Position numbers and translations under genes: made by a program
NCBI GenBank assembly: GCA_963668695.2
Contig: CAXXLQ010000004.1
Location: 3,232,001-3,296,000, forward strand
DNA: 64,000 nt
Origin: Vicinamibacteria bacterium
GTDB taxonomy: Bacteria; Acidobacteriota; Vicinamibacteria; Marinacidobacterales; Marinacidobacteraceae
Reading direction: 5' to 3'
Notes under the pieces: generated by a model
Told to the model about the DNA's origin: nothing
Database searches by the model: none
What the model saw: only the letters and a program-made list of their open reading frames with translations
Shown here: in pieces, positions 25,280-61,064 of the stretch
Position numbering within the stretch: the first letter of the stretch is position 1
Layout of the letters: the number at the start of each line of letters is the position of its first letter

Positions 25280-31880
<6,601 letters not shown>

Positions 31881-35806: not shown

Positions 35807-35905
35807 TCAGCGGACCCAATTCAGCGGACCCAGTTCAGCGGGCCCAATTCAACGGGCCCAATTCAACGGGCCCAATTCAGCGGACCCAAGTTCAGCGGAT
35901 CCATT
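35807..35905. repeat. 14-bp tandem repeat x7 (TCA[G/A]CGG[A/G]CCCAAT)
   Basis: Direct reading; the last unit contains the stop codon of the FAH gene. Confidence 0.9.
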
Positions 35906-40673: not shown

Positions 40674-40765
40674 GGCGGGCCTCCCACCAGGGTGTGGACA
40701 AGTTGGCGCGAGCGCCGAGGCCCTCACCGGGCGGTTGAACCCGCGATCGTACGCGCCCTTTGGGC

Positions 40766-40820
40766 CGCCGAAAAATGGCCGCCGGAAAACGGGCGCCGGA
40801 AAACGGGCGCCGGAAAACGG
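40766..40820. repeat. 14-bp tandem repeat x4 (CGCCGGAAAACGGG)
   Basis: Direct reading; 8 bp past the stop of the upstream gene. Confidence 0.85.
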
Positions 40821-44744: not shown

Positions 44745-44754
44745 CCACCCCCTC

Positions 44755-46101
44755 CAGCGTGGAGTTCCCGCCAGCAGACCCCGCACAGCGTGGAGTTCCA
44801 CCCCTCCAGCGTGGAGTTCCCGCCAGCAGACCCCGCTACAGCGTGGAGTTCCACCTCCTCCAGCGTGGAGTTCCCGCCAGCAGACCCCGCTACAGCGTGG
44901 AGTTCCGCGGCTACAGCGTGGAGTTCCCGCCAGCAGACCCCGCACAGCGTGGAGTTCCGCGCAGCGTGGAGTTCCCGCCAGCAGACCCCGCTTCAGCGTG
45001 GAGTTCGCCAGCAGACCCCGCTACAGCGTGGAGTTCCGCGCCTACAGCGTGGAGTTCCCGCCAGCAGACCCCGCCCAGCGTGGAGTTCCGCGGCCTCAGC
45101 GTGGAGTTCCCGCCAGCAGACCCCGCTACAGCGTGGAGTTCCGCGGCTACAGCGTGGAGTTCCCGCCAACAGACCCCGCTACAGCGTGGAGTTCCCACCA
45201 GCAGACCCCGCCAGCGTGGAGTTCCGCGGCTACAGCGTGGACCCCACAGCGTGGAGTTCCGCGGCTACAGCGTGGAGTTCCCCAGCAGACCCCGCCACAG
45301 CGTGGAGTTCCGCGGCTCCAGCGTGGAGTTCCCGCCAGCAGACCCCGCCACAGCGTGGAGTCCCGCGGCTACAGCGTGGAGTTCCCACCAGCAGACCCCG
45401 CCACAGCGTGGAGTCCCGCGGCTACAGCGTGGAGTTCCCACCAACAGACCCCGCCAGCGTGGAGTCCCGCGGCCACAGCGTGGAGTTCCCACCCAGACCC
45501 CGCTACAGCGTGGAGTTCCGCGGCTACAGCGTGGAGTTCCCGCCAACAGACCCCGCTACAGCGTGGAGTTCCGCGGCTACAGCGTGGAGTTCACGCCAGC
45601 ACCCCGCGGCTACAGCCCGCGGCTACAGCGTGGAGTTCCGCCAGCAGACCAGCGCTACAGCGTGGAGTTCCCGCCAGCAGACCCCGCCACAGCGTGGAGT
45701 TCCGCGGCTACAGCGTGGAGTTCACGCCAACAGACCCCGCCACAGCGTGGAGTCCCGCGGCTACAGCGTGGAGTTCCCGCCAGCAGACCCCGCCACAGCG
45801 TGGAGTTCCGCGGCTACAGCGTGGAGTTCACGCCAGCAGACCCCGCCACAGCGTGGAGTTCCGCGGCTACAGCGTGGAGTTCACGCCAACAGACCCCGCT
45901 ACAGCGTGGAGTTGCCCCCGCCGGACCCCCTCCAGCGTGGAGTTCCGCCGCTACAGCGTGGAGTTCCGCGGCTCCAGCGTGGAGTTCCCGCCAACAGATC
46001 CCGCTACAGCGTGGAGTGCGCGGCTTCAGCGTGGAGTTCCCACCAGCAGACCCGCTACAGCGTGGAGTTCCCCCGCCGGACCCCCTCCAGCGTGGAGTCC
46101 C
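44755..46101. repeat. Composite satellite, ~51 copies of CAGCGTGGAGTTCC in alternating ~32-bp and ~21-bp units
   Basis: Unit A CAGCGTGGAGTTCCCGCCAGCAGACCCCGCTA; unit B CAGCGTGGAGTTCCGCGGCTA; counted by eye. Confidence 0.95.
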
Positions 46102-46187
46102 CGTTAACGCACTCCGCTGGTGCGTTGAGTTCGCCCCGCCGAACGCGCCGAACGGCGGAGCCGTCACGTTTGCTTCGATCGGCGCTG

Positions 46188-48775: not shown

Positions 48776-51536
48776 CCAACTCCGAAATCCAACTGGCCCG
48801 TCTATCCCCCGCGGGTCTATCCCCCGCGGGCGCGGGGGAAACTGGGTCTGCTCTGGCGTCCTACGATCCGAACGAGGTCCATCCCCGCGCGTGCGGGGGA
48901 AACGATTAGAACCCGGTGATGACGGGGCGCCGTCCCGGGTCCATCCCCGCGCGTGCGGGGGAAACGACCTCGCGGCCGGCTACGCGCGCCGGTGCCAAGG
49001 GTCCATCCCCGCGCGTGCGGGGGAAGCGCGCCACCCGTCACTGACGGCACATGGGCACAAGGTCCATCCCCGCGCGTGCGGGGGAAGCTCGTGGTCCCCG
49101 AAGAGCTGACGCACGCCAACGGTCCATCCCCGCGCGTGCGGGGGAAACGCGCTTCCCTTCAACGCGGCATGGGCGGACCGGTCCATCCCCGCGCGTGCGG
49201 GGGAAGCTCTGCTCCCATGCCTCTGAGAGATGCGGGCCGGGGTCCATCCCCGCGCGTGCGGGGGAAGCGGTAGAGCAAGCGTTTCATTCCAGTCCGTTTC
49301 CGGTCCATCCCCGCGCGTGCGGGGGAAGCATCGTCGCGTGGTCCTTGTCGGAGAACGGCTGGGTCCATCCCCGCGCGTGCGGGGGAAGCGGCGACGGCAA
49401 CCTCACCACGACCCGCAAGCAGGGTCCATCCCCGCGCGTGCGGGGGAAGCCAGCCCGACGACCGCCACCAGGTAGAGCAAGCGGGTCCATCCCCGCGCGT
49501 GCGGGGGAAGCTGCGTCAGTTCCGGGCGCGGCGTCAGGCAGTCGGGTCCATCCCCGCGCGTGCGGGGGAAGCATCCCCGCGCTCGCCCAAGAGGCCGAGG
49601 TCCGGGGTCCATCCCCGCGCGTGCGGGGGAAGCATCGTGTGGGAGGTCCACCAGGACAGCGTGAACGGTCCATCCCCGCGCGTGCGGGGGAAGCGGATCG
49701 TCGGTCCCGAACACGCCAGGGGGGACGGGTCCATCCCCGCGCGTGCGGGGGAAACCGCACCCTCCTTCGCAGGTGGTGGAGCGGGTCCATCCCCGCGCGT
49801 GCGGGGGAAGCCGGCGCGTTGCCTCCGACCCTTCATGGACCTCCGGTCCATCCCCGCGCGTGCGGGGGAAGCGCTCCGTTCTTCACGACGCAAATCCCGT
49901 GGCCGGGTCCATCCCCGCGCGTGCGGGGGAAGCGATCCTTGGGTTCGGTGGCCCGAGGTTCGCCCGGGTCCATCCCCGCGCGTGCGGGGGAAGCTCTCGA
50001 AGCAGATCTACAAGAAGATGCCGATGGGGTCCATCCCCGCGCGTGCGGGGGAAGCCGCAACATCTTCGGGCCCGCGGCACCGATGGACGGTCCATCCCCG
50101 CGCGTGCGGGGGAAACGACTCCATGGCGCGGAAGGAAGTTGACGAGGGTCCATCCCCGCGCGTGCGGGGGAAGCGGCTTCTACTTCGCGGCGCCGCACCT
50201 CGGAAAGGGTCCATCCCCGCGCGTGCGGGGGAAGCGCGTTCGCCCGGGCCTTTTCCCCCTCAGTCACCGGTCCATCCCCGCGCGTGCGGGGGAAGCATGG
50301 AGGTATTACGTCAGGAAGAGACAGCGAACGGTCCATCCCCGCGCGTGCGGGGGAAGCACATCAAAGCACTCCAGGCGTGGAAGGTGGACGGGTCCATCCC
50401 CGCGCGTGCGGGGGAAGCCGGGGCTTGGTGGTCATGGTTGTTCCTCCGGGGGGTCCATCCCCGCGCGTGCGGGGGAAGCGCGAACGACGCGGGGACAAGG
50501 GCATGGTTTGCCGGTCCATCCCCGCGCGTGCGGGGGAAGCGTCAGCTCAGTGCCGCTGGCGAGGTGGAGGGAGGGTCCATCCCCGCGCGTGCGGGGGAAG
50601 CTGGGTCAACTCTCGGTAGAACACACGACCGTCGGGTCCATCCCCGCGCGTGCGGGGGAAGCGACCACGCGAGCGTAAGCGGGCCGAGCTTGAACGGTCC
50701 ATCCCCGCGCGTGCGGGGGAAGCCGGTACGACTTCGGGGCGGCCCACACGGGTGGCGGTCCATCCCCGCGCGTGCGGGGGAAGCCAACGTCTCCTGCGTC
50801 CCGGTCGGGCGGTACCGGGTCCATCCCCGCGCGTGCGGGGGAAGCTCCATCGCCCACTGCATGGCGCCCGGCGTGTACGGTCCATCCCCGCGCGTGCGGG
50901 GGAAACCCGCTTCCAGCTCGGTGAGGCTGGCGTGGTGACGGCGGGTCCATCCCCGCGCGTGCGGGGGAAGCGCCAACTCCGCGGACGATGACTACTCGCC
51001 AACGTAGGGTCCATCCCCGCGCGTGCGGGGGAAGCCTCTCGGGCCGTCGGCAAGGAGCGCGGTCAGCGCGGGTCCATCCCCGCGCGTGCGGGGGAAGCTT
51101 CCAGCGGCCCCGGTGTGGCCCGAGCAGGGATGGGTCCATCCCCGCGCGTGCGGGGGAAGCGGCATCGCCTTTGCCGTCCTCGTCTTCCTTGCCGGTCCAT
51201 CCCCGCGCGTGCGGGGGAAGCGGGCTCCTGTTCCAGGTGCGCGCCGACAAGGGAGGTCCATCCCCGCGCGTGCGGGGGAAGCCCGCACCTTGTCGATGGC
51301 CCGCTGGAGCCACGGGGTCCATCCCCGCGCGTGCGGGGGAAAGCGTGTCCGAAAAGCCGGATCGGGGGGGTCCATCCCCGCGCGTGCGGGGGAAACCCAG
51401 CTTGTCCAGCGCCCGTCCCCCGGAGGGTCCATCCCCGCGCGTGCGGGGGAAGCGGAGCGATCGACCGTCGGGGTCCATCCCCGCGCGTGCGGGGGAAAGC
51501 CGTTCTGGGGTCCATCCCCGCGCGTGCGGGGGAAAC
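48739..51536 (-). CRISPR. Type I-E CRISPR array, ~47 repeats (two degenerate at the trailer) and ~46 spacers
   Basis: 28-bp repeat G[C/T]TTCCCCCGCACGCGCGGGGATGGACC (minus strand), modal spacer 33 bp. Degeneration is at the low-coordinate end and the leader abuts cas2. Confidence 0.98.
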
Positions 51537-51610
51537 CCTTATTGTCACCGAAAATTCACAATTCCTTCGTCGTCCTCCGAGAACACCCGCCAGACCTTGA
51601 TGGCCCGCTT
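51537..51610 (-). promoter_or_regulatory. CRISPR leader
   Basis: AT-richer segment between cas2 stop and the first repeat. Confidence 0.65.
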
Positions 51611-55705: not shown

Positions 55706-56260
55706 TCAGGACTGCACCGCCTGGGCGCGGAAGAAATCGTGAGAGAGAGTGCGGACCGCGCGATCGGGACGCACATCCAGCCCGAGCCAGGGTCGGCCGA
55801 GAAGAAGTTCCGCGACCGGATACAGATTGGCCTTCACATGCTTTCGCGCCAGCCACTCGGCCGCTACCCGGAGTTCCCGCGCCAACTCGCCGTTTTCGGC
55901 GCGAACGAGGCGCACGAAACGAAACTCGGAATAGCCCGCCTTGGCCAGTTCGGACCCGAAAGACCGATCGAAGTCCAGTGGCTTCGGCGCCATCTCGGCC
56001 ATCGCCCGGATGAGCGCGGCCCACGCGGCGTCCACCCGGAGATCCGCGTGGCCCCCGGGTTCCCTCCATTCCTCCGGCACAATGCGCAGGTAGAGCCTCC
56101 AGAAGACCGGAGGGCGGTCGGAAGGCGTCATCCGCCGCAGCTCGGCGAGGGATCCGGTTCCGATCACCTCACCACTCAGCTCATGGGACAGTCGCCCCAG
56201 GACTCGGCCCAGGGTGACGGGTTGTTCGGGGTTTGCACGTTCTTCAGTCATCGGTCTCAC
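55706..56260 (-). CDS. cse2: Cse2/Cas11
   Basis: LAELRR, FWRL, SEFRFVRLVRA; position between cse1 and cas7. Confidence 0.85.
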   Translation of the reverse strand: MRPMTEERANPEQPVTLGRVLGRLSHELSGEVIGTGSLAELRRMTPSDRPPVFWRLYLRIVPEEWREPGGHADLRVDAAWAALIRAMAEMAPKPLDFDRSFGSELAKAGYSEFRFVRLVRAENGELARELRVAAEWLARKHVKANLYPVAELLLGRPWLGLDVRPDRAVRTLSHDFFRAQAVQS

Positions 56261-57804
56261 TTCCGGGAGTCAGCCTCCTCGAAGGCGTCGGGTAGCTGCT
56301 TGCGCAGGCCGCCGAAGAGCACGCTCTCCGAGGCGAACTGCGCCTTCTCGCGGCGGGTGCCGGGAGGGGAGAGGCGGCGCCAGGCATCCTCGGCAAGCCG
56401 AGTCGCGGTTGTCCGGAGAAAGACCTGCCACTTTCGGCGCGCGCATACGAAGTCCTCCGCCGGGGCCGCAAACAGGGAATCGAAGAACTGATCGTCCGTC
56501 TGCCGATCGAACCGCCTGACGACGGGGGCCGCGTCAGCCTTCTTGAAATTCGGGTGTTCGGGCCCCTGCAGATACACGATGATGGCCTGTCGCAACACTT
56601 TCCGCGCGCTGCCGGCGAGCGTGACCATCTCGTCGGAGAGCTTCGCCATCGAAGCCTCGTCGTCGTCGGGATCGGCCCCGACCGAGAGTTGGACCGACGC
56701 CGGGAGGGGAATGACCCGCTCGTGAAACCCCTCGGTCTTTCCCTGCCCCCGGACCAACGCGGCGAAATGGATCTGCGAATCCTCTCCCGATTCGCCAGGA
56801 AGCGCACCGAGGGCAAGGGGCTTTCGGGATTCGCCGCCGCGGAACAGGATCCTCTGGACGAGGCGGTAGTCGAAGCCGCCACCTCCCACCGTGAGGGCGG
56901 TCGGCGGATCCTTTCGGAGATCAAGCGGAATCCACGGGTCGCCCACATTGCCGAAGAATGCTTTGGCGTCGGTTCGCCGCTTTGCGGCGGGACGCACCCG
57001 GGCCTCCAGCGAACCGTGGCCAGCCTCGATCAACCGCACTCGGCGGCAGATTTCGATGAAGTAGGGGTCCAGCTCCGAAAGCGAGAGCATCTCGTCGGTG
57101 TCCCATGCGCGCACCCAGGTCAGCGCCAGACCACCCCGGGCTCGGTACACCTGATCGTCCATGCTCTCCAGCACTCCCTCACGCCGAGCCAGCAGCATCC
57201 GGATCGCCCGAACGACACGCGGCCCCCAACGCGAACTGGGCCGCCGGTCCACGAGCACCCGGCTGGCGAAGCCCCCGTTCATCCGGGCCACGCCGGGCTG
57301 TCCACGACCCGAATAGCCTTGTTGGGTTTGCAGATTGACCAGCGCATACAGCCAGAGATGCGGGCTCCCGCCGATCGCGCGGGACTGTTTGATGTCGTGG
57401 TTCTTGGCGGTCACCAGAAGATCCAGGGCGTCGGGAGTCGCGGCGTACGGCTTGAACTCATCGAGCCGGCAAGTGGGCGCCTGAAGGAGAGCTGGCTTCG
57501 CGGGGTCCTCCACCACCAGGCTCCAGGCCGAATCGCCGGCGTCCGGAGCCAGGTCGGCCAACATCGCGCGCCAGGCGTGGGGGTCCGAGGGAGGCGCCTC
57601 GCGTCCTTGCCGCCGCAGGGCCAACGAGCCGAGTTGCCCGAGGAACTGATACCAGGCGGGCGCCTGGTGCGCCCCCAGACCCGGGAAGGCATCGACCGTG
57701 TCGCCGGCCAGCCGCGCGTACAGCTCCGGCAAAGCGAGACGTTCTGTCCGGGAAGTGTCGCCACCCTGGATCGGAATTACGGCATCAGTCAACAAGTCAT
57801 GCAT
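56257..57804 (-). CDS. cse1: Cse1/Cas8e large subunit
   Basis: HDLLTDAVI, TAKNHDIK, RMNGG, PYFIEICRRVRL, GDPW, RGQGKTEGFHER; GGAGG RBS. Confidence 0.85.
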   Translation of the reverse strand: MHDLLTDAVIPIQGGDTSRTERLALPELYARLAGDTVDAFPGLGAHQAPAWYQFLGQLGSLALRRQGREAPPSDPHAWRAMLADLAPDAGDSAWSLVVEDPAKPALLQAPTCRLDEFKPYAATPDALDLLVTAKNHDIKQSRAIGGSPHLWLYALVNLQTQQGYSGRGQPGVARMNGGFASRVLVDRRPSSRWGPRVVRAIRMLLARREGVLESMDDQVYRARGGLALTWVRAWDTDEMLSLSELDPYFIEICRRVRLIEAGHGSLEARVRPAAKRRTDAKAFFGNVGDPWIPLDLRKDPPTALTVGGGGFDYRLVQRILFRGGESRKPLALGALPGESGEDSQIHFAALVRGQGKTEGFHERVIPLPASVQLSVGADPDDDEASMAKLSDEMVTLAGSARKVLRQAIIVYLQGPEHPNFKKADAAPVVRRFDRQTDDQFFDSLFAAPAEDFVCARRKWQVFLRTTATRLAEDAWRRLSPPGTRREKAQFASESVLFGGLRKQLPDAFEEADSRK

Positions 57805-57863
57805 GCTGTGCCTCCTCAGGGGCGGGGCTTCGGACCGCCCGTCCGAGGGCGGTGGTTTCGAGC

Positions 57864-57892
57864 ATTGTTACCGATACGAGATGATTTGTCAA
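57864..57892 (-). promoter_or_regulatory. Sigma70-type promoter of the cse1-cas2 operon
   Basis: Minus strand TTGACA (57887-57892), 16-17 bp, TAACAAT (57864-57870), ~60 bp upstream of the cse1 ATG. Confidence 0.7.
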
Positions 57893-57960
57893 ACTCTGCT
57901 TTTTAGAGATTAGAATCAACACCCGGGCACCGAACAGCCAGTCCCGCGGATCGCAGTCCC

Positions 57961-58037
57961 AACACCCCGACTGAATCGGGGATACACCTTCTGCTTTCTT
58001 TGAGCGGAAAATTTCCCCGCACCTGCGGGGACTCGCC
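57961..58037 (+). ncRNA. Putative crRNA-like regulatory RNA (degenerate repeat, ~21-nt spacer, degenerate repeat)
   Basis: Two 28-nt I-E-like hairpins (CCCCGA-CTGAA-TCGGGG-ATACACC; CCCCGC-ACCT-GCGGGG-ACTCGCC); the spacer seed matches the cse1 promoter next to AAC. Confidence 0.7.
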
Positions 58038-58051
58038 ACGGCGCCACCCGA

Positions 58052-60670
58052 TCAGCTCCCGACCCGGCGCAGCCCGAGCCGGTCGTAGAGGAACGAAAAT
58101 CTCCCGAGGCGGAATCGGATCACCCCGTCCCCGGCCTGGATTTCCGTCGGTTCCGTGTCAGGATCGATCCCCTCCGCCATCCAGCCCGGCACCGCAAGCG
58201 TGCCAACCCGCGTCCCGAACGGGCCGGGGAGCGGCTCCGTCAAGTCGAGCCGCCGGTCCTTCAGGCCGAGTCTCGTCGCCGCCTCGATATCCCGAATCGG
58301 CTGGTTGGCCACCAGCGATTCCTTCCAGCGGATCTTCACCGCGGACGCCGCCGTCCCCTCGGCGGATCTCCCCGCCAGCACCGTTCCGAGATGGGCCTGC
58401 CACGGCCCGCCGAGACGCTGGGCGAATGCCTCCAACCCGGCGCCATGCGTGGCCGCCTCGACCAGTTCCCGATTGTCCTTGGGAACCTGGATCTCCCCGC
58501 GCTCGGCGAGCCAGTCCCGGGTGGCGCGAAGCCCTACGATGTTCTCGTAGATCCGCCCGAGACCCAGCGGGCTTCTTCCACGTCGCCGATTCCCTTCGGA
58601 CCCCAGGAGACCCTCAAGACGGTCCGTCGAGGGAGCGACAACGGTGACAACGGGCTCCTCGTACCCCGGCGGCCGCAGATTGTCGGCGTGGCGGTGCAAG
58701 CGGCCGATGCGCTGCAGCAACACGTCTCCCGGCGCCAGATCGGTTATCAGCCAGTCCGCGCAGATGTCGAGCGACTGCTCCGCCGTCTGGGTGGTGACCG
58801 CGACCACTCCCTCGCGGCGTTTTCCGAGCGCTTCTTCGAGGGCCGCGTCGAGCAGCCTCCGATCCTCCGGCGCGAATCGGCCGTGGTGCGGCGCAACCAC
58901 GCCCTCGCACACGAACAACCTCGCCCCCAGTTCCTCGAGGCGCTCGACCGTGTCCTGGGCATCGTCCACGCGGTTCCGGATGAAGAGGACCACCGCCCCG
59001 GCCTCCGCCGCCTCCCGGATCCGACAGAAGAGATCCTTGGCAACGCTGTCCGGGTCCACCAGTTCGACACGGACCCGCTTGGACCGACCGTCCACTTCGA
59101 GCTCGTGAAGGGATTCCCCGCTCCGGCTCACGGACGGATACGGAAGGCGCGCGGCCTCCGCTACGCCCTGGATTTCACCCATCTCGATCCGCCTCGAAGG
59201 TTGGAGCAGGCGTTCGCGCGCCGAACTTCCGAGGGTCGCCGACATGAGCAGCGCATGGCCTCCGGCGGCGGAATGCTGATCGAGGAGGTTCCGGAGAAGC
59301 GTCGTCATGTAGGCATCCGAGGCGTGCACCTCATCCACCACGAGCAGCAGACGCAGCATGGGTCCGGACCGCATTTGCGCATGCCGCACCCTCAGCCCGC
59401 CGAGCAGGGCCTGGTCAATGGTTCCGATCATGACCGCGCCCGACAGGTAGCGCTTCGCGTTTTCAACCGCCCAACCCCGCTCCCGAACGCGCTCGTCGTC
59501 CCACAGGACCCGCCAGGTTTCCGGAAGGGGCCGGTGGCCTTCCCGATCGTCCACGCGCAGATAGCCGGGCACCGCCAGTCCGACCGGCGGGGCAGCATCG
59601 CCAAGCCAGCCCGCGATCACCTTCTTGATGCGGGTGTGGATCTGGACGGCGGCGGCGCGCGTCGGGAGGGCGAAGTACATCCCGTCCACCTCGCCCTCGC
59701 GGAAGAGCCGGAGGAAGTGGATCAGAGCCGCTTCGGTCTTCCCGGAACCCGTTTCCGCTTCAAGAGCCACGATCTGCCCGGAGCGCGGCAAAGGCTGCTC
59801 AAGGAGGGCGCGCTGCGCGGGACGGGGAGGCCCGAGCTTCGGGAACAGGGTATGAAAGTCCAGCGAGAGCTCCTTGGCCGCCGCCCGTCCAGCCACCGGA
59901 TCCCACCACCTCTTCCCGATGACGTCCCGAGCCGCGGCTCGCGCCGAGGCAATCCGCAATCTTGCTTGGGTCCCGCCCTCGCTCGGGAAAGGGAAGTCGT
60001 CGTGATTCGAACCGAGCCAGTCGGCCAATACCACCAGCCCAGCCAGGGCGTGGAGAAACCGGGAGGCGGTGGGAAGCGGGTCCCCGCCCCGGGAGAAGGC
60101 GTTGGGGAACATCTCCTCGAGGACCGCCACGACCTCGGCGAGCGCCGCGAGAGGTTCATAGCCATTCCGCGACCGCCAATCCGATGCGTTCACCGCCGGC
60201 CGTTCAGTAGGGAGGCTTCCGTGGTGGGCCAGCACCACGTCCCAGACTGCGGCTTCGGCATCGGAGTCGGCGAACCAGGACTTCCAGAGGCCTCGCTTCA
60301 GGGCTCTCCGGACTTCCGTTCGGATTGCCGATGGAGGGGCATCGGACCCCAGAAGCGCCCATGCGGGGGCAATGTGCGACGCCCTGCTTCGATCCCGCAA
60401 ACGGCGCTGAAAGGAGTGAACCGCCTTGCCGAAGTCGTGGAGCCCGGCAAAGAAACTGAAGCGAGCGATGTCGGTCCCGGAAAGCTGGCGGCCGGCGAGC
60501 CGATCCAGCCGGGCGCGGATCGTCGGCAGGGAAAGGATCGCCTCGGCCATGGCGCCCACGTCGACCGAGTGATCGGTGAGGCTCAGGCTGGGCGTCCCGT
60601 CCAGCGACTTGGCCCACGCCGTCCGAGGATCGGGTAACGGGAGTTGGGGCACGGCCGATCGATCCGGCAT
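58052..60670 (-). CDS. cas3: Cas3 HD nuclease/helicase
   Basis: WAKS, DHSVDV, LHDFGKA, LADWLGS, ETGSGKTE, DEVH, SATL, QRIGRLHRH; start at ATG 60670 after GGAGG. Confidence 0.95.
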   Translation of the reverse strand: MPDRSAVPQLPLPDPRTAWAKSLDGTPSLSLTDHSVDVGAMAEAILSLPTIRARLDRLAGRQLSGTDIARFSFFAGLHDFGKAVHSFQRRLRDRSRASHIAPAWALLGSDAPPSAIRTEVRRALKRGLWKSWFADSDAEAAVWDVVLAHHGSLPTERPAVNASDWRSRNGYEPLAALAEVVAVLEEMFPNAFSRGGDPLPTASRFLHALAGLVVLADWLGSNHDDFPFPSEGGTQARLRIASARAAARDVIGKRWWDPVAGRAAAKELSLDFHTLFPKLGPPRPAQRALLEQPLPRSGQIVALEAETGSGKTEAALIHFLRLFREGEVDGMYFALPTRAAAVQIHTRIKKVIAGWLGDAAPPVGLAVPGYLRVDDREGHRPLPETWRVLWDDERVRERGWAVENAKRYLSGAVMIGTIDQALLGGLRVRHAQMRSGPMLRLLLVVDEVHASDAYMTTLLRNLLDQHSAAGGHALLMSATLGSSARERLLQPSRRIEMGEIQGVAEAARLPYPSVSRSGESLHELEVDGRSKRVRVELVDPDSVAKDLFCRIREAAEAGAVVLFIRNRVDDAQDTVERLEELGARLFVCEGVVAPHHGRFAPEDRRLLDAALEEALGKRREGVVAVTTQTAEQSLDICADWLITDLAPGDVLLQRIGRLHRHADNLRPPGYEEPVVTVVAPSTDRLEGLLGSEGNRRRGRSPLGLGRIYENIVGLRATRDWLAERGEIQVPKDNRELVEAATHGAGLEAFAQRLGGPWQAHLGTVLAGRSAEGTAASAVKIRWKESLVANQPIRDIEAATRLGLKDRRLDLTEPLPGPFGTRVGTLAVPGWMAEGIDPDTEPTEIQAGDGVIRFRLGRFSFLYDRLGLRRVGS

Positions 60671-61064
60671 TCGGACCTCCTGCGGGACAGAATTCTTGGA
60701 AGTCAGCACCCGGCGTGCGCTGCCCACCGGGTCGCTCGACCTTCCGCTTTTTAGTATCTCGCCTCCATGCGTCAAAAACGGTCACCCCCATGCTCCGGCC
60801 CGTGGATTCGCACCGTGGCTCACCCGCTTCATCCAACCGTGTTTGATCGATCGGATGGGAACTGCGGGCATGACCGCCGGATCCGGTGGCGAGGGCGGTT
60901 TCGCCGCGCGCTGCGCGGCGGCGCCGACCAAGGTCGGCAGTCCCTCCCCCGCCGCTCCAGGTCTGCCCCGCGTTCCAGAACCAGTGCAGCCTGGAGGCCG
61001 GCGGGCCCTCCGAAACGCGCCGCCTGGTTCAGTCGGCGGCGACGCGGTCCGCGCGCTCGAGAAG

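What the first reader, a model, noticed from the sequence alone, without database searches (positions are those of the whole stretch)
57864..58037. Hidden mini-CRISPR between cas3 and cse1 whose guide targets the Cascade operon's own promoter
Seen: on the + strand, antisense to the cas genes, lie R1 AACACCCCGACTGAATCGGGGATACACC (57961-57988), a 21-nt spacer (57989-58009) and R2 AATTTCCCCGCACCTGCGGGGACTCGCC (58010-58037). Both keep the CCCCG..CGGGGA stem of the array repeat; R1 has a compensatory A-T pair and an 8-nt handle ATACACCT (array: ATGGACCN). The guide TCTGCTTTCTTTGAG matches 57895 TCTGCTTTTTAGAG at positions 1-8 and 10 (13/14 with one bulge). That site is preceded by AAC (57892-57894), the PAM deduced independently from the main array, and it overlaps the TTGACA -35 box of the cse1 promoter. 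A divergent TTGTCA-N19-TAGAAT could drive the RNA. Known: CreA/CreR-type crRNA-like RNAs use partial pairing so that Cascade represses promoters without Cas3 cleavage. Inference: an RNA-guided negative-feedback loop on cse1-cas2, probably also on its own promoter. Standard array finders would probably miss it.
Basis: partly seen in the sequence, partly recalled or inferred. Interest (0 to 1): 0.9.

Follow-up and report, generated by a model that had tools for sequence, protein, structure and literature searches.

The report
Self-repressing mini-CRISPR beside Cascade genes
Between cas3 and cse1 of a type I-E CRISPR locus lies a small two-repeat "mini-CRISPR" whose guide matches the promoter region of the Cascade genes, a self-regulation device of a kind first described in 2023, so this is a good new example and not a new mechanism.

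Summary
Every quoted sequence stands at the stated coordinates.

The element looks like a CreR-type regulatory mini-array. It lies antisense between cas3 and cse1 (cas8e). R1 keeps the 5' handle. R2 keeps a perfect Cas6e-type hairpin. The spacer-like part is 20 nt.

Contigs of 4 of 4 public runs carry one extra base behind 57899 (A, G or T), at protospacer position 6, which Cascade flips out. With that base the guide matches 12 of 13 pairing positions among the first 15, next to AAC. A match this good was reached by 1 of 300 shuffled guides. Genome-wide, only one other site scores 12 of 13, and it has no AAN flank.

Two relatives carry the same element, with guide and target changed together. 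In a diverged strain with 17 substitutions in 72 nt, none falls in the PAM plus paired block.

Expression, processing and repression are untested.

The kind is already published: cas3-cas8 mini-arrays in about 19% of I-E loci, and Salmonella CreR. Verdict: a new member of a known kind.

The parts
57961..57989 (+). psiR1, the degenerate repeat. Hairpin 57965-57981 (CCCCGA / 5-nt loop / TCGGGG). 8-nt 5' handle 57982-57989 (ATACACCT).
   Evidence: Sequence. It folds at -10.2 kcal/mol, z -3.0. The handle matches the array handle ATGGACC at 5 of 7 (my count). The R1 of G010 and of L015 carries ATGGACCC exactly.
57990..58009 (+). psiS, a 20-nt guide, 12 nt shorter than the canonical 32.
   Evidence: The handle-to-hairpin distance is 25, against 37 in the main array. 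It is predicted to fold back on its own seed (-8.2 kcal/mol, 0 of 300 shuffles as stable).
58010..58037 (+). psiR2. Perfect Cas6e-type hairpin 58014-58031. The part after the stem has decayed.
   Evidence: Sequence. It folds at -14.2 kcal/mol, z -3.5. The stem matches the array repeat at 12 of 12 and the handle part at 3 of 7 (my count).
57892..57894 (+). PAM-like AAC flanking the target. Its first A overlaps the -35 of the cse1 promoter.
   Evidence: The best targets of 10 other mini-arrays are all flanked by AAT, AAC or AAA, although the flank was not scored.
57895..57913 (+). Target (protospacer) of the guide. 57895-57908 are positions 1-5 and 7-15; position 6 is absent from the window.
   Evidence: An extra base behind 57899 is present in 4 of 4 runs. 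The score is 12 of 13 with N at that place. There are no substitutions in 57892-57909 in the diverged X8 contig.
57864..57892 (-). Predicted cse1 promoter, TTGACA-17-AACAAT.
   Evidence: 10 of 12 matches, and the only such site in 57700-58200. This is a prediction only. The diverged X8 contig changes two -35 bases.
57911..57916 (+). Candidate -10 (TAGAAT) of the mini-array's own promoter.
   Evidence: A -10-like hexamer sits 2 nt (TATAAA in G010) or 0 nt (TAAAAT in L015) after target position 15 (read by eye). The scanner does not call it.
58052..60775 (-). cas3
   Evidence: Pfam Cas3_HD 2.4e-27, Cas3-like_C_2 1.3e-26, DEAD 8.5e-11.
56257..57804 (-). [quoted passage not shown]
   Evidence: Pfam CRISPR_Cse1 1.5e-10. 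Downstream lie Cas7 (CT1975), Cas5, Cas6e and Cas1.
48875..51545 (-). Main CRISPR array: 45 repeats with a 61-nt period.

Best explanation
This is a CreR-type regulatory mini-CRISPR (a crRNA-like RNA gene) of a type I-E system.

Inferred mechanism, step by step:
1. The + strand, antisense to cas3 and cse1, is transcribed from a promoter whose -10 is probably TAGAAT (57911-57916).
2. Cas6e cuts after the R1 and R2 hairpins.
3. This gives an RNA of about 49 nt: the 8-nt handle ATACACCT, a 20-nt guide and the 21-nt R2 hairpin.
4. The RNA assembles into a Cascade that is probably short of two Cas7 subunits.
5. The complex binds the AAC-flanked site at 57895, pairing over guide positions 1-15. Positions 6 and 12 are flipped out and position 9 is mismatched.
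6. The site abuts the -35 of the cse1 promoter and covers the spacer of the mini-array's own promoter. Binding should therefore repress cse1-cas2 and the RNA itself.
7. Pairing stops at about 15 nt and the guide is short, so no Cas3 cutting is expected.

Shown here: the anatomy, the conservation, the co-variation of guide and target, and the sparing of the target in natural variants.
Inferred, not shown: transcription, processing, complex make-up and repression.
For: Anatomy.
- R1 keeps the handle and R2 keeps the hairpin, which is the published CreR pattern (paper passage).

Match of guide to target.
- 4 of 4 runs from 4 studies carry an extra base behind 57899: A in X1, G in X3, T in X8 and X9. 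That base is position 6.
- With N at that place the guide scores 12 of 13, flanked by AAC; 1 of 300 shuffled guides does as well.
- Over 8.19 million genome positions, only one other site scores 12 of 13 (flank CGT). 45 score 11, none with an AAN flank.

Relatives.
- G010 (same genus, Cse1 69% identical) has the same antisense element. Its target is AAT-flanked and scores 12 of 13, with mismatches at 6, 9 and 12. No shuffled guide of 5000 does as well.
- L015 (Cse1 61%) also scores 12 of 13, again 0 of 5000.
- Between the window and L015, guide and target change together at positions 1, 5, 8, 11, 13 and 14 (my reading).
- Guides tried on the wrong locus score 7-9. The near-identical window and G010 guides score 12 on the G010 region.

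Wider survey.
- Of 11 other distinct mini-arrays found in the 93 upstream regions scanned, 9 have a target of 11 or more of 13 that at most 8 of 300 shuffles reach.

Natural variation.
- The mini-array shows no difference in any of the 4 runs.
- The diverged X8 contig has 17 substitutions in 72 nt and none in 57892-57909. For that block, named beforehand, P = 0.0035.

Promoter.
- The predicted cse1 -35 overlaps the PAM.
Against: - No RNA evidence: no listed holder of the stretch is an RNA run.
- In the window as assembled the match is only a seed of 8 plus position 10. The overall score is not above chance (3628 of 5000 shuffles).
- The extra base comes from assembled contigs, not raw reads. 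X1 may be the window's own source, so the missing base could also be a real variant.
- Promoters are predictions. The scanner finds none in G010. The diverged X8 contig changes two bases of the predicted -35. With the extra base the proposed + strand -35 lies 20 nt from the -10.
- The PAM of this system was not determined. No spacer of either array found a protospacer.
- Rfam gives no CRISPR-DR match to R1 or R2.
- L042, a relative with Cse1 62% identical, has a short spacer region and no mini-array. The element is therefore dispensable.
- The test for any substitution-free run of 18 or more gives only P = 0.10.
Confidence: 0.82

Rival explanations
1. A decaying remnant of a former array or of spacer-acquisition debris, with no present function. 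The match to the promoter region would be chance.
For: R1 and R2 are degenerate. Rfam does not recognise them. The match in the window as assembled is weak. One relative lacks the element.
Against: The element is conserved in G010 and L015, with guide and target changed together and each guide specific to its own locus. It is invariant in 4 runs, and the target block is spared inside a hypervariable stretch. Decay follows the functional pattern: handle kept in R1, hairpin kept in R2.
Confidence: 0.06
2. The two G+C-rich hairpins are mainly transcription terminators or insulators at the end of cas3, or members of the genome's REP-like hairpin families. Their likeness to the repeat would be incidental.
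For: R2 lies 14 nt after the cas3 stop. On the minus strand it is followed by a short T run. The genome holds about 67 similar hairpin loci.
Against: The terminator scanner calls neither hairpin. The tails after the hairpin in G010 and L015 are T-poor. R1 in the relatives carries the exact array handle ATGGACCC. The guide's own hairpin uses G-U pairs that exist only in the + strand RNA. This explanation says nothing about the match to the promoter. A double role is not excluded.
Confidence: 0.05
3. A CreTA-type addiction module. The RNA would chiefly hold down a small toxin gene (creT) in the same spacer region, and cas repression would be secondary.
For: CreA and CreR share this anatomy, and CreA represses both PcreT and Pcas8 in Haloarcula (passage). 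The target lies inside the + strand promoter, whose transcript has a leader of about 40 nt before R1.
Against: I saw no ATG in the + strand leader between the predicted start near 57923 and R1 (by eye). That leader is poorly conserved among the three loci and is the most variable part between strains. The 80-aa ORF across the region matches no Pfam family.
Confidence: 0.05
4. A small protein gene lies between cas3 and cse1 (ORF 57797-58039 on the minus strand, 80 aa).
For: An open frame exists.
Against: It matches no Pfam family. In a 67% G+C genome such frames are common. The aligned region in G010 and L015 is full of gaps whose lengths are not multiples of three.
Confidence: 0.01

Closest known systems
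CreR of the Salmonella enterica type I-E system (Liu et al., bioRxiv 10.1101/2023.03.10.532045; I read passages only)
   Same: A type I-E system. A degenerate mini-CRISPR with no toxin seen. psiR1 keeps the 8-nt handle and psiR2 keeps the 3' hairpin part. About 15 nt of seed-proximal identity to a PAM-flanked site upstream of casA/cse1. Autorepression of Cascade, shown there by a reporter.
   Different: - The flank is AAC here and AAG there.
- The guide is 20 nt here.
- Pairing is interrupted at position 9.
- The target touches the predicted -35, about 90 nt before the start codon. There it lies about 140 bp upstream.
- The organism differs and nothing is tested here.
Mini-arrays between cas3 and cas8 of type I-E loci (Shmakov et al., PMC10120712; I read passages only)
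   Same: Same place. Transcribed opposite to cas3. The better-kept repeat lies next to the seed. The target is in the cas8 promoter region next to a PAM. Reported in 19% of 3741 I-E loci.
   Different: Their worked I-E example is E. coli, with AAG. I could not check whether this clade is in their lists, because supplements are closed.
CreTA (CreA with the CreT toxin) of Haloarcula hispanica, type I-B (described in the passages)
   Same: A crRNA-like RNA with limited complementarity that makes Cascade a repressor and not a nuclease.
   Different: No toxin partner was found here. The subtype and the repeat differ.
Type I-F CreA/CreR and viral Cracr RNAs with short psiS (bioRxiv 10.1101/2024.10.29.618823; I read passages only)
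   Same: A spacer-like part shorter than canonical, which in I-F gives complexes with fewer Csy3 (Cas7) subunits.
   Different: That work is on I-F and on phage-borne copies. Here the copy is chromosomal and I-E, and the make-up of the complex is only inferred.
E. coli Cascade with engineered shortened spacers (Kuznedelov et al. 2016, PMC5159557; I read the abstract only)
   Same: Short crRNAs assemble into Cascades with fewer Cas7. Interference needed spacers of more than 20 nt, so a 20-nt guide sits at that limit.
   Different: Those guides were engineered. This one is natural.

Membership tests
CreR / regulatory mini-array (crRNA-like RNA) of type I systems | Two repeat-like sequences flank one spacer-like sequence, inside or beside the cas operon and apart from the main array. 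| tested here: met
   R1 57961-57989 and R2 58010-58037, in the 247-nt cas3-cse1 spacer. The main array lies more than 6 kb away.
CreR / regulatory mini-array (crRNA-like RNA) of type I systems | psiR1 keeps the 3' part that becomes the 5' handle. psiR2 keeps the hairpin (3' handle). The other halves decay. | tested here: met
   R1 handle 5 of 7 to the array, and 7 of 7 in G010 and L015. R2 stem 12 of 12, with 3 of 7 in the part after the stem (my counts).
CreR / regulatory mini-array (crRNA-like RNA) of type I systems | Partial, seed-proximal complementarity of psiS to a site in the promoter region of effector cas genes. | tested here: met
   Seed 1-8 in the window as assembled. 12 of 13 once the base seen in 4 of 4 runs is allowed for. 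The site overlaps the predicted cse1 -35. The same holds in G010 and L015.
CreR / regulatory mini-array (crRNA-like RNA) of type I systems | The target is flanked by the system's PAM. | tested here: inconclusive
   The flank is AAC. The 29th repeat base, taken by analogy with E. coli as PAM-derived, is C 29, G 13, T 2, A 0 of 44 here and C 35, G 22, T 8, A 0 of 65 in G010. No protospacer was found to read the PAM directly.
CreR / regulatory mini-array (crRNA-like RNA) of type I systems | Transcribed, and processed by Cas6 into a crRNA-like RNA. | not testable with these tools
   No RNA holder is listed. A Cas6e gene is present.
CreR / regulatory mini-array (crRNA-like RNA) of type I systems | Cascade-dependent repression of the cas promoter without cleavage. 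| not testable with these tools
   This needs a reporter or a binding assay.
CreTA toxin-antitoxin | A small toxin gene (creT) whose promoter is the RNA's target. | tested here: not met
   No candidate was found. I saw no ATG in the + strand leader (by eye), the leader is poorly conserved, and the 80-aa ORF matches no family. An RNA toxin cannot be excluded from sequence alone.

The most novel reading that the evidence does not exclude
In this Cse1 clade, regulatory mini-arrays may be built to a rule that I did not find stated for type I-E in the passages I read.

1. Length in 6-nt steps. The distance from handle to hairpin comes in steps of 6: 36 or 37 in six arrays, 31 in two, and 25 in four, the window among them (12 distinct arrays). 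That would mean natural Cascades with 6, 5 or 4 Cas7 subunits.
2. No G in the flank. Every good target is flanked by AAT, AAC or AAA and never AAG (10 of 10 other arrays, plus the window).
3. A folded guide. In the window's lineage the guide folds back on its own seed (0 of 300 shuffles as stable in the window).

Together these would make a several-fold safeguard against self-cleavage, and perhaps a way to tune how well the RNA competes with ordinary crRNAs.
Probability: 0.3. Interest if true: 0.5.

Novelty: new member of a known kind. Interest (0 to 1): 0.3.

Why it matters
- It adds a well-supported example of Cascade autorepression by a crRNA-like RNA, from an uncultured, high-G+C bacterium far from the Salmonella and E. 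coli cases.
- The support comes from a kind of evidence that is cheap to repeat. Natural strain variation spares exactly the PAM and the paired positions, and varies freely at the flipped-out position 6.
- It shows that a one-base assembly gap can hide such a target.
- It gives a small set of type I-E mini-arrays whose lengths step by 6 nt. That set could be used to test whether short Cascades exist in nature.
- For annotation, it argues for scanning long cas3-cas8 spacers for degenerate repeats.

Tried and rejected
- Rfam search of 57750-58110 at permissive thresholds: four chance-level matches, none a CRISPR repeat family.
- Protospacer searches to read the PAM directly. The whole array against 50,697 phage records gave no credible match (best E 0.07). 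The window's spacers against its own genome gave only short chance matches. G010's spacers against the window's genome gave none at E 0.001.
- RNA evidence: no RNA holder is listed. The two RNA runs listed hold next to none of the sampled words, and I did not lay them.
- Promoter scanner on the relatives. It found none in G010. In L015 it found two sites in the cse1 direction, one of which spans the target. My hand reading of a conserved -35/-10 register in the relatives is therefore only a suggestion.
- More orthologues. Of 101 genomes scored, G000 included, 5 had a Cse1 match and only G010 was close. The genome-contig scan gave 10 loci. The metagenome scan gave 103 relatives, of which 80 were kept, mostly 34-44% identical. 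L042 (62%) lacks the element.
- Survey. I dropped the first L010 row (distance 45), which is a spurious overlap with R1. I counted L085, L086, L091, L092 and L093 as one. L088 (10 of 13; 32 of 300 shuffles) and L102 (8 of 13; 299 of 300) have no convincing target in the region scanned. The stricter scan found 7 arrays, the window among them.
- The guide's self-hairpin is not general. It is clear in the window, L010 and L079, weak in L015, and absent in most others.
- Supplements of the papers were closed, so I could not see whether this clade, its PAM or its spacer lengths are listed there.
I used no earlier finding.

Full report
**What is there.** The window holds a type I-E locus on the minus strand.
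- cas3 is 58052-60775 and cse1 is 56257-57804. Then come a Cas7 (CT1975), Cas5, Cas6e and Cas1 (Pfam).
- The array has 45 repeats with a 61-nt period at about 48875-51545.
- The cas3-cse1 spacer is 247 nt (57805-58051).

**Likeness to the array repeat.** In crRNA orientation the array repeat ends in the handle ATGGACC plus one variable base.
- R1 keeps a 6-bp stem with one compensatory A-T pair and a loop one base longer. Its handle is ATACACC, 5 of 7.
- R2 keeps the stem perfectly, but only 3 of 7 after it. These are my counts.
- Both fold as expected.
- This is the pattern described for CreR: psiR1 keeps the 5' handle and psiR2 the 3' handle (passage).
- Similar 6-bp hairpins give 134 strand-hits outside the array in the 4.1-Mb genome, which I take as about 67 loci. 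Two on one strand within 50 nt in this spacer is therefore not a chance event.
- Rfam does not recognise them.

**The target, and a correction.** In the window as assembled the guide (57990 onwards) matches the AAC-flanked site at 57895 at positions 1-8 and 10 only.
- A seed run of 8 was reached by 84 of 5000 shuffled guides. The overall score of 8 of 13 was reached by 3628 of 5000. On this alone the case would be weak.
- I then laid contigs of four public runs from four studies on 57650-58250. All four carry one extra base behind 57899: A in X1, which is near-identical and may be the window's source; G in X3; T in X8 and X9.
- That base is protospacer position 6, one of the every-sixth positions that Cascade flips out and that do not pair. 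This is established knowledge, and it is stated in the passages.
- With an N at that place the guide scores 12 of 13 pairing positions among the first 15. The only mismatch is position 9. The flank is AAC, and 1 of 300 shuffled guides does as well.
A real deletion variant is not excluded.
- Across 8.19 million positions of the genome, only one other site reaches 12 of 13 (flank CGT). 45 reach 11, none with an AAN flank. I see no second target.

**Relatives.**
- Among 101 genomes scored, G000 included, 5 have a Cse1 match.
- G010 is in the same genus, with Cse1 69% identical. It has the same antisense element: R1 with the exact handle ATGGACCC, a 20-nt guide that differs from the window's at two places, and R2 with a perfect stem. 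Its AAT-flanked target scores 12 of 13, with mismatches at 6, 9 and 12. No shuffled guide of 5000 does as well.
- L015 is a contig labelled as a gammaproteobacterial MAG, with Cse1 61% identical. It has the element with a 31-nt guide and an AAT-flanked target at 12 of 13, again 0 of 5000.
- Read position by position from handle and PAM, guide and target differ together between the window and L015 at positions 1, 5, 8, 11, 13 and 14.
- Guides tried on the wrong locus score 7-9.
- The three spacer regions align poorly except over the mini-array.
- L042 (Cse1 62%) has a spacer of about 130 nt and no mini-array.

**Natural variation.**
- No difference from the window is listed in 57949-58192 in any of the four runs. 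That stretch contains the mini-array.
- One X8 contig is a diverged form, with 17 substitutions between 57877 and 57948. None lies in 57892-57909, which is the PAM plus positions 1-16 without 6.
- For that block, which I had named before seeing the variants, P = 0.0035. For any substitution-free run of 18 or more, P = 0.10.
- The same contig changes two bases of the predicted -35. The target is thus better kept than the promoter call.

**Promoters.**
- The scanner's only hit in 57700-58200 is TTGACA-17-AACAAT on the minus strand (57892..57864). Its -35 overlaps the first A of the PAM.
- On the + strand, TAGAAT (57911-57916) sits 2 nt after target position 15. TATAAA sits at the same offset in G010, and TAAAAT directly after position 15 in L015 (by eye).
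- The scanner finds no promoter in G010. In L015 it finds two in the cse1 direction, one spanning the target.

**PAM.**
- No protospacer was found.
- The variable 29th repeat base is C 29, G 13, T 2, A 0 of 44 in the window. It is C 35, G 22, T 8, A 0 of 65 in G010.
- If, as in E. coli (recalled), this base comes from the PAM, then C and T are natural third bases here. The 'AA' is not shown by the array.

**Wider survey.**
- I scanned 93 regions upstream of Cse1 relatives; that count includes the window twice, once as assembled and once with the N. A handle-plus-hairpin pattern found 12 distinct mini-arrays, the window included. Five are antisense to cse1 and seven are co-oriented.
- Of the 11 others, 9 have a target of 11 or more of 13 that at most 8 of 300 shuffles reach.
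- All 10 with 10 or more are flanked by AAT (5), AAC (4) or AAA (1), although the flank was not scored.
- Handle-to-hairpin distances are 25 (four), 31 (two), 36 (four) and 37 (two), against 37 in the window's main array.

**Known or new.**
- Mini-arrays between cas3 and cas8, transcribed opposite to cas3 and aimed at the cas8 promoter, are reported in 19% of 3741 type I-E loci (PMC10120712, passages).
- Salmonella CreR represses PcasA about 8.6-fold in a reporter (bioRxiv 10.1101/2023.03.10.532045, passages).
- Short spacer-like parts that give complexes with fewer backbone subunits are shown for type I-F (bioRxiv 10.1101/2024.10.29.618823, passages).
- Shortened guides give E. coli Cascades with fewer Cas7, and interference needs more than 20 nt (PMC5159557, abstract).
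- In the passages I read I did not find the 6-nt steps or the lack of AAG stated for type I-E. That is not a claim that they are unpublished, since I made no search for them and the supplements were closed.

**Verdict.** This is a real and well-supported CreR-type mini-array, a new member of a known kind. Its function is inferred from comparison, not shown. Confidence is 0.82 and interest 0.3.

Noticed in passing
window 57899/57900: The window lacks one base that contigs of 4 of 4 public runs carry here (A, G or T, depending on the run). It is probably an assembly gap at a site that varies between strains.
   Followed up: partly
window 51380-51545 (minus strand, leader end of the main array): The four leader-proximal spacer units are short: 9, 18, 29 and 25 nt, counting the 29th base. 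Units 8-11 are long, at 34-37 nt. The rest are mostly 33. This could be recombination, assembly error or odd acquisition.
   Followed up: no
window 57990-58009; L010 and L015 counterparts: The guide is predicted to pair its own seed with its 3' part (7-8 bp with G-U pairs, so only in the + strand RNA). In the window z is -4.8, with 0 of 300 shuffles as stable. It is weaker in L010 and L015 and not general in other mini-arrays. The 3' part (AGCGGA) is kept in all three loci although it does not pair with the target.
   Followed up: partly
loci L017, L024, L040, L066, L085 (=L086, L091-L093), L088, L102: In these Cse1 relatives the mini-array is co-oriented with cse1 and sits just upstream of it. 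R1's stem is often decayed to GGAG before the handle. Most have AAT- or AAC-flanked targets nearby.
   Followed up: partly
window 57877-57948: Between strains in run X8 this 72-nt promoter and leader stretch differs at 17 positions plus indels. For the flanks (57650-57876 and 57949-58192) the call lists three differences (57709, 57809, 57818), so they are nearly identical. It is a local hypervariable patch.
   Followed up: partly
window 57815-57856: A G+C-rich hairpin lies in the predicted 5' leader of cse1, followed by GAGGAGG before the ATG. Rfam gives only chance-level matches here.
   Followed up: no
window 44750-46130: A long tandem-repeat region with units of about 53 nt built on CAGCGTGGAGTTCC motifs (families D2-D4).
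   Followed up: no
window 27884-27973, 28072-28161, 35807-35888, 40763-40818: Short tandem repeats with periods of 15, 18, 14 and 14 nt.
   Followed up: no
G000 genome-wide, for example C4:109362, 183637, 671285: A dispersed REP-like hairpin family, GCCCCGCTTCGCGGGGCTCTGCGTT, in many copies.
   Followed up: no
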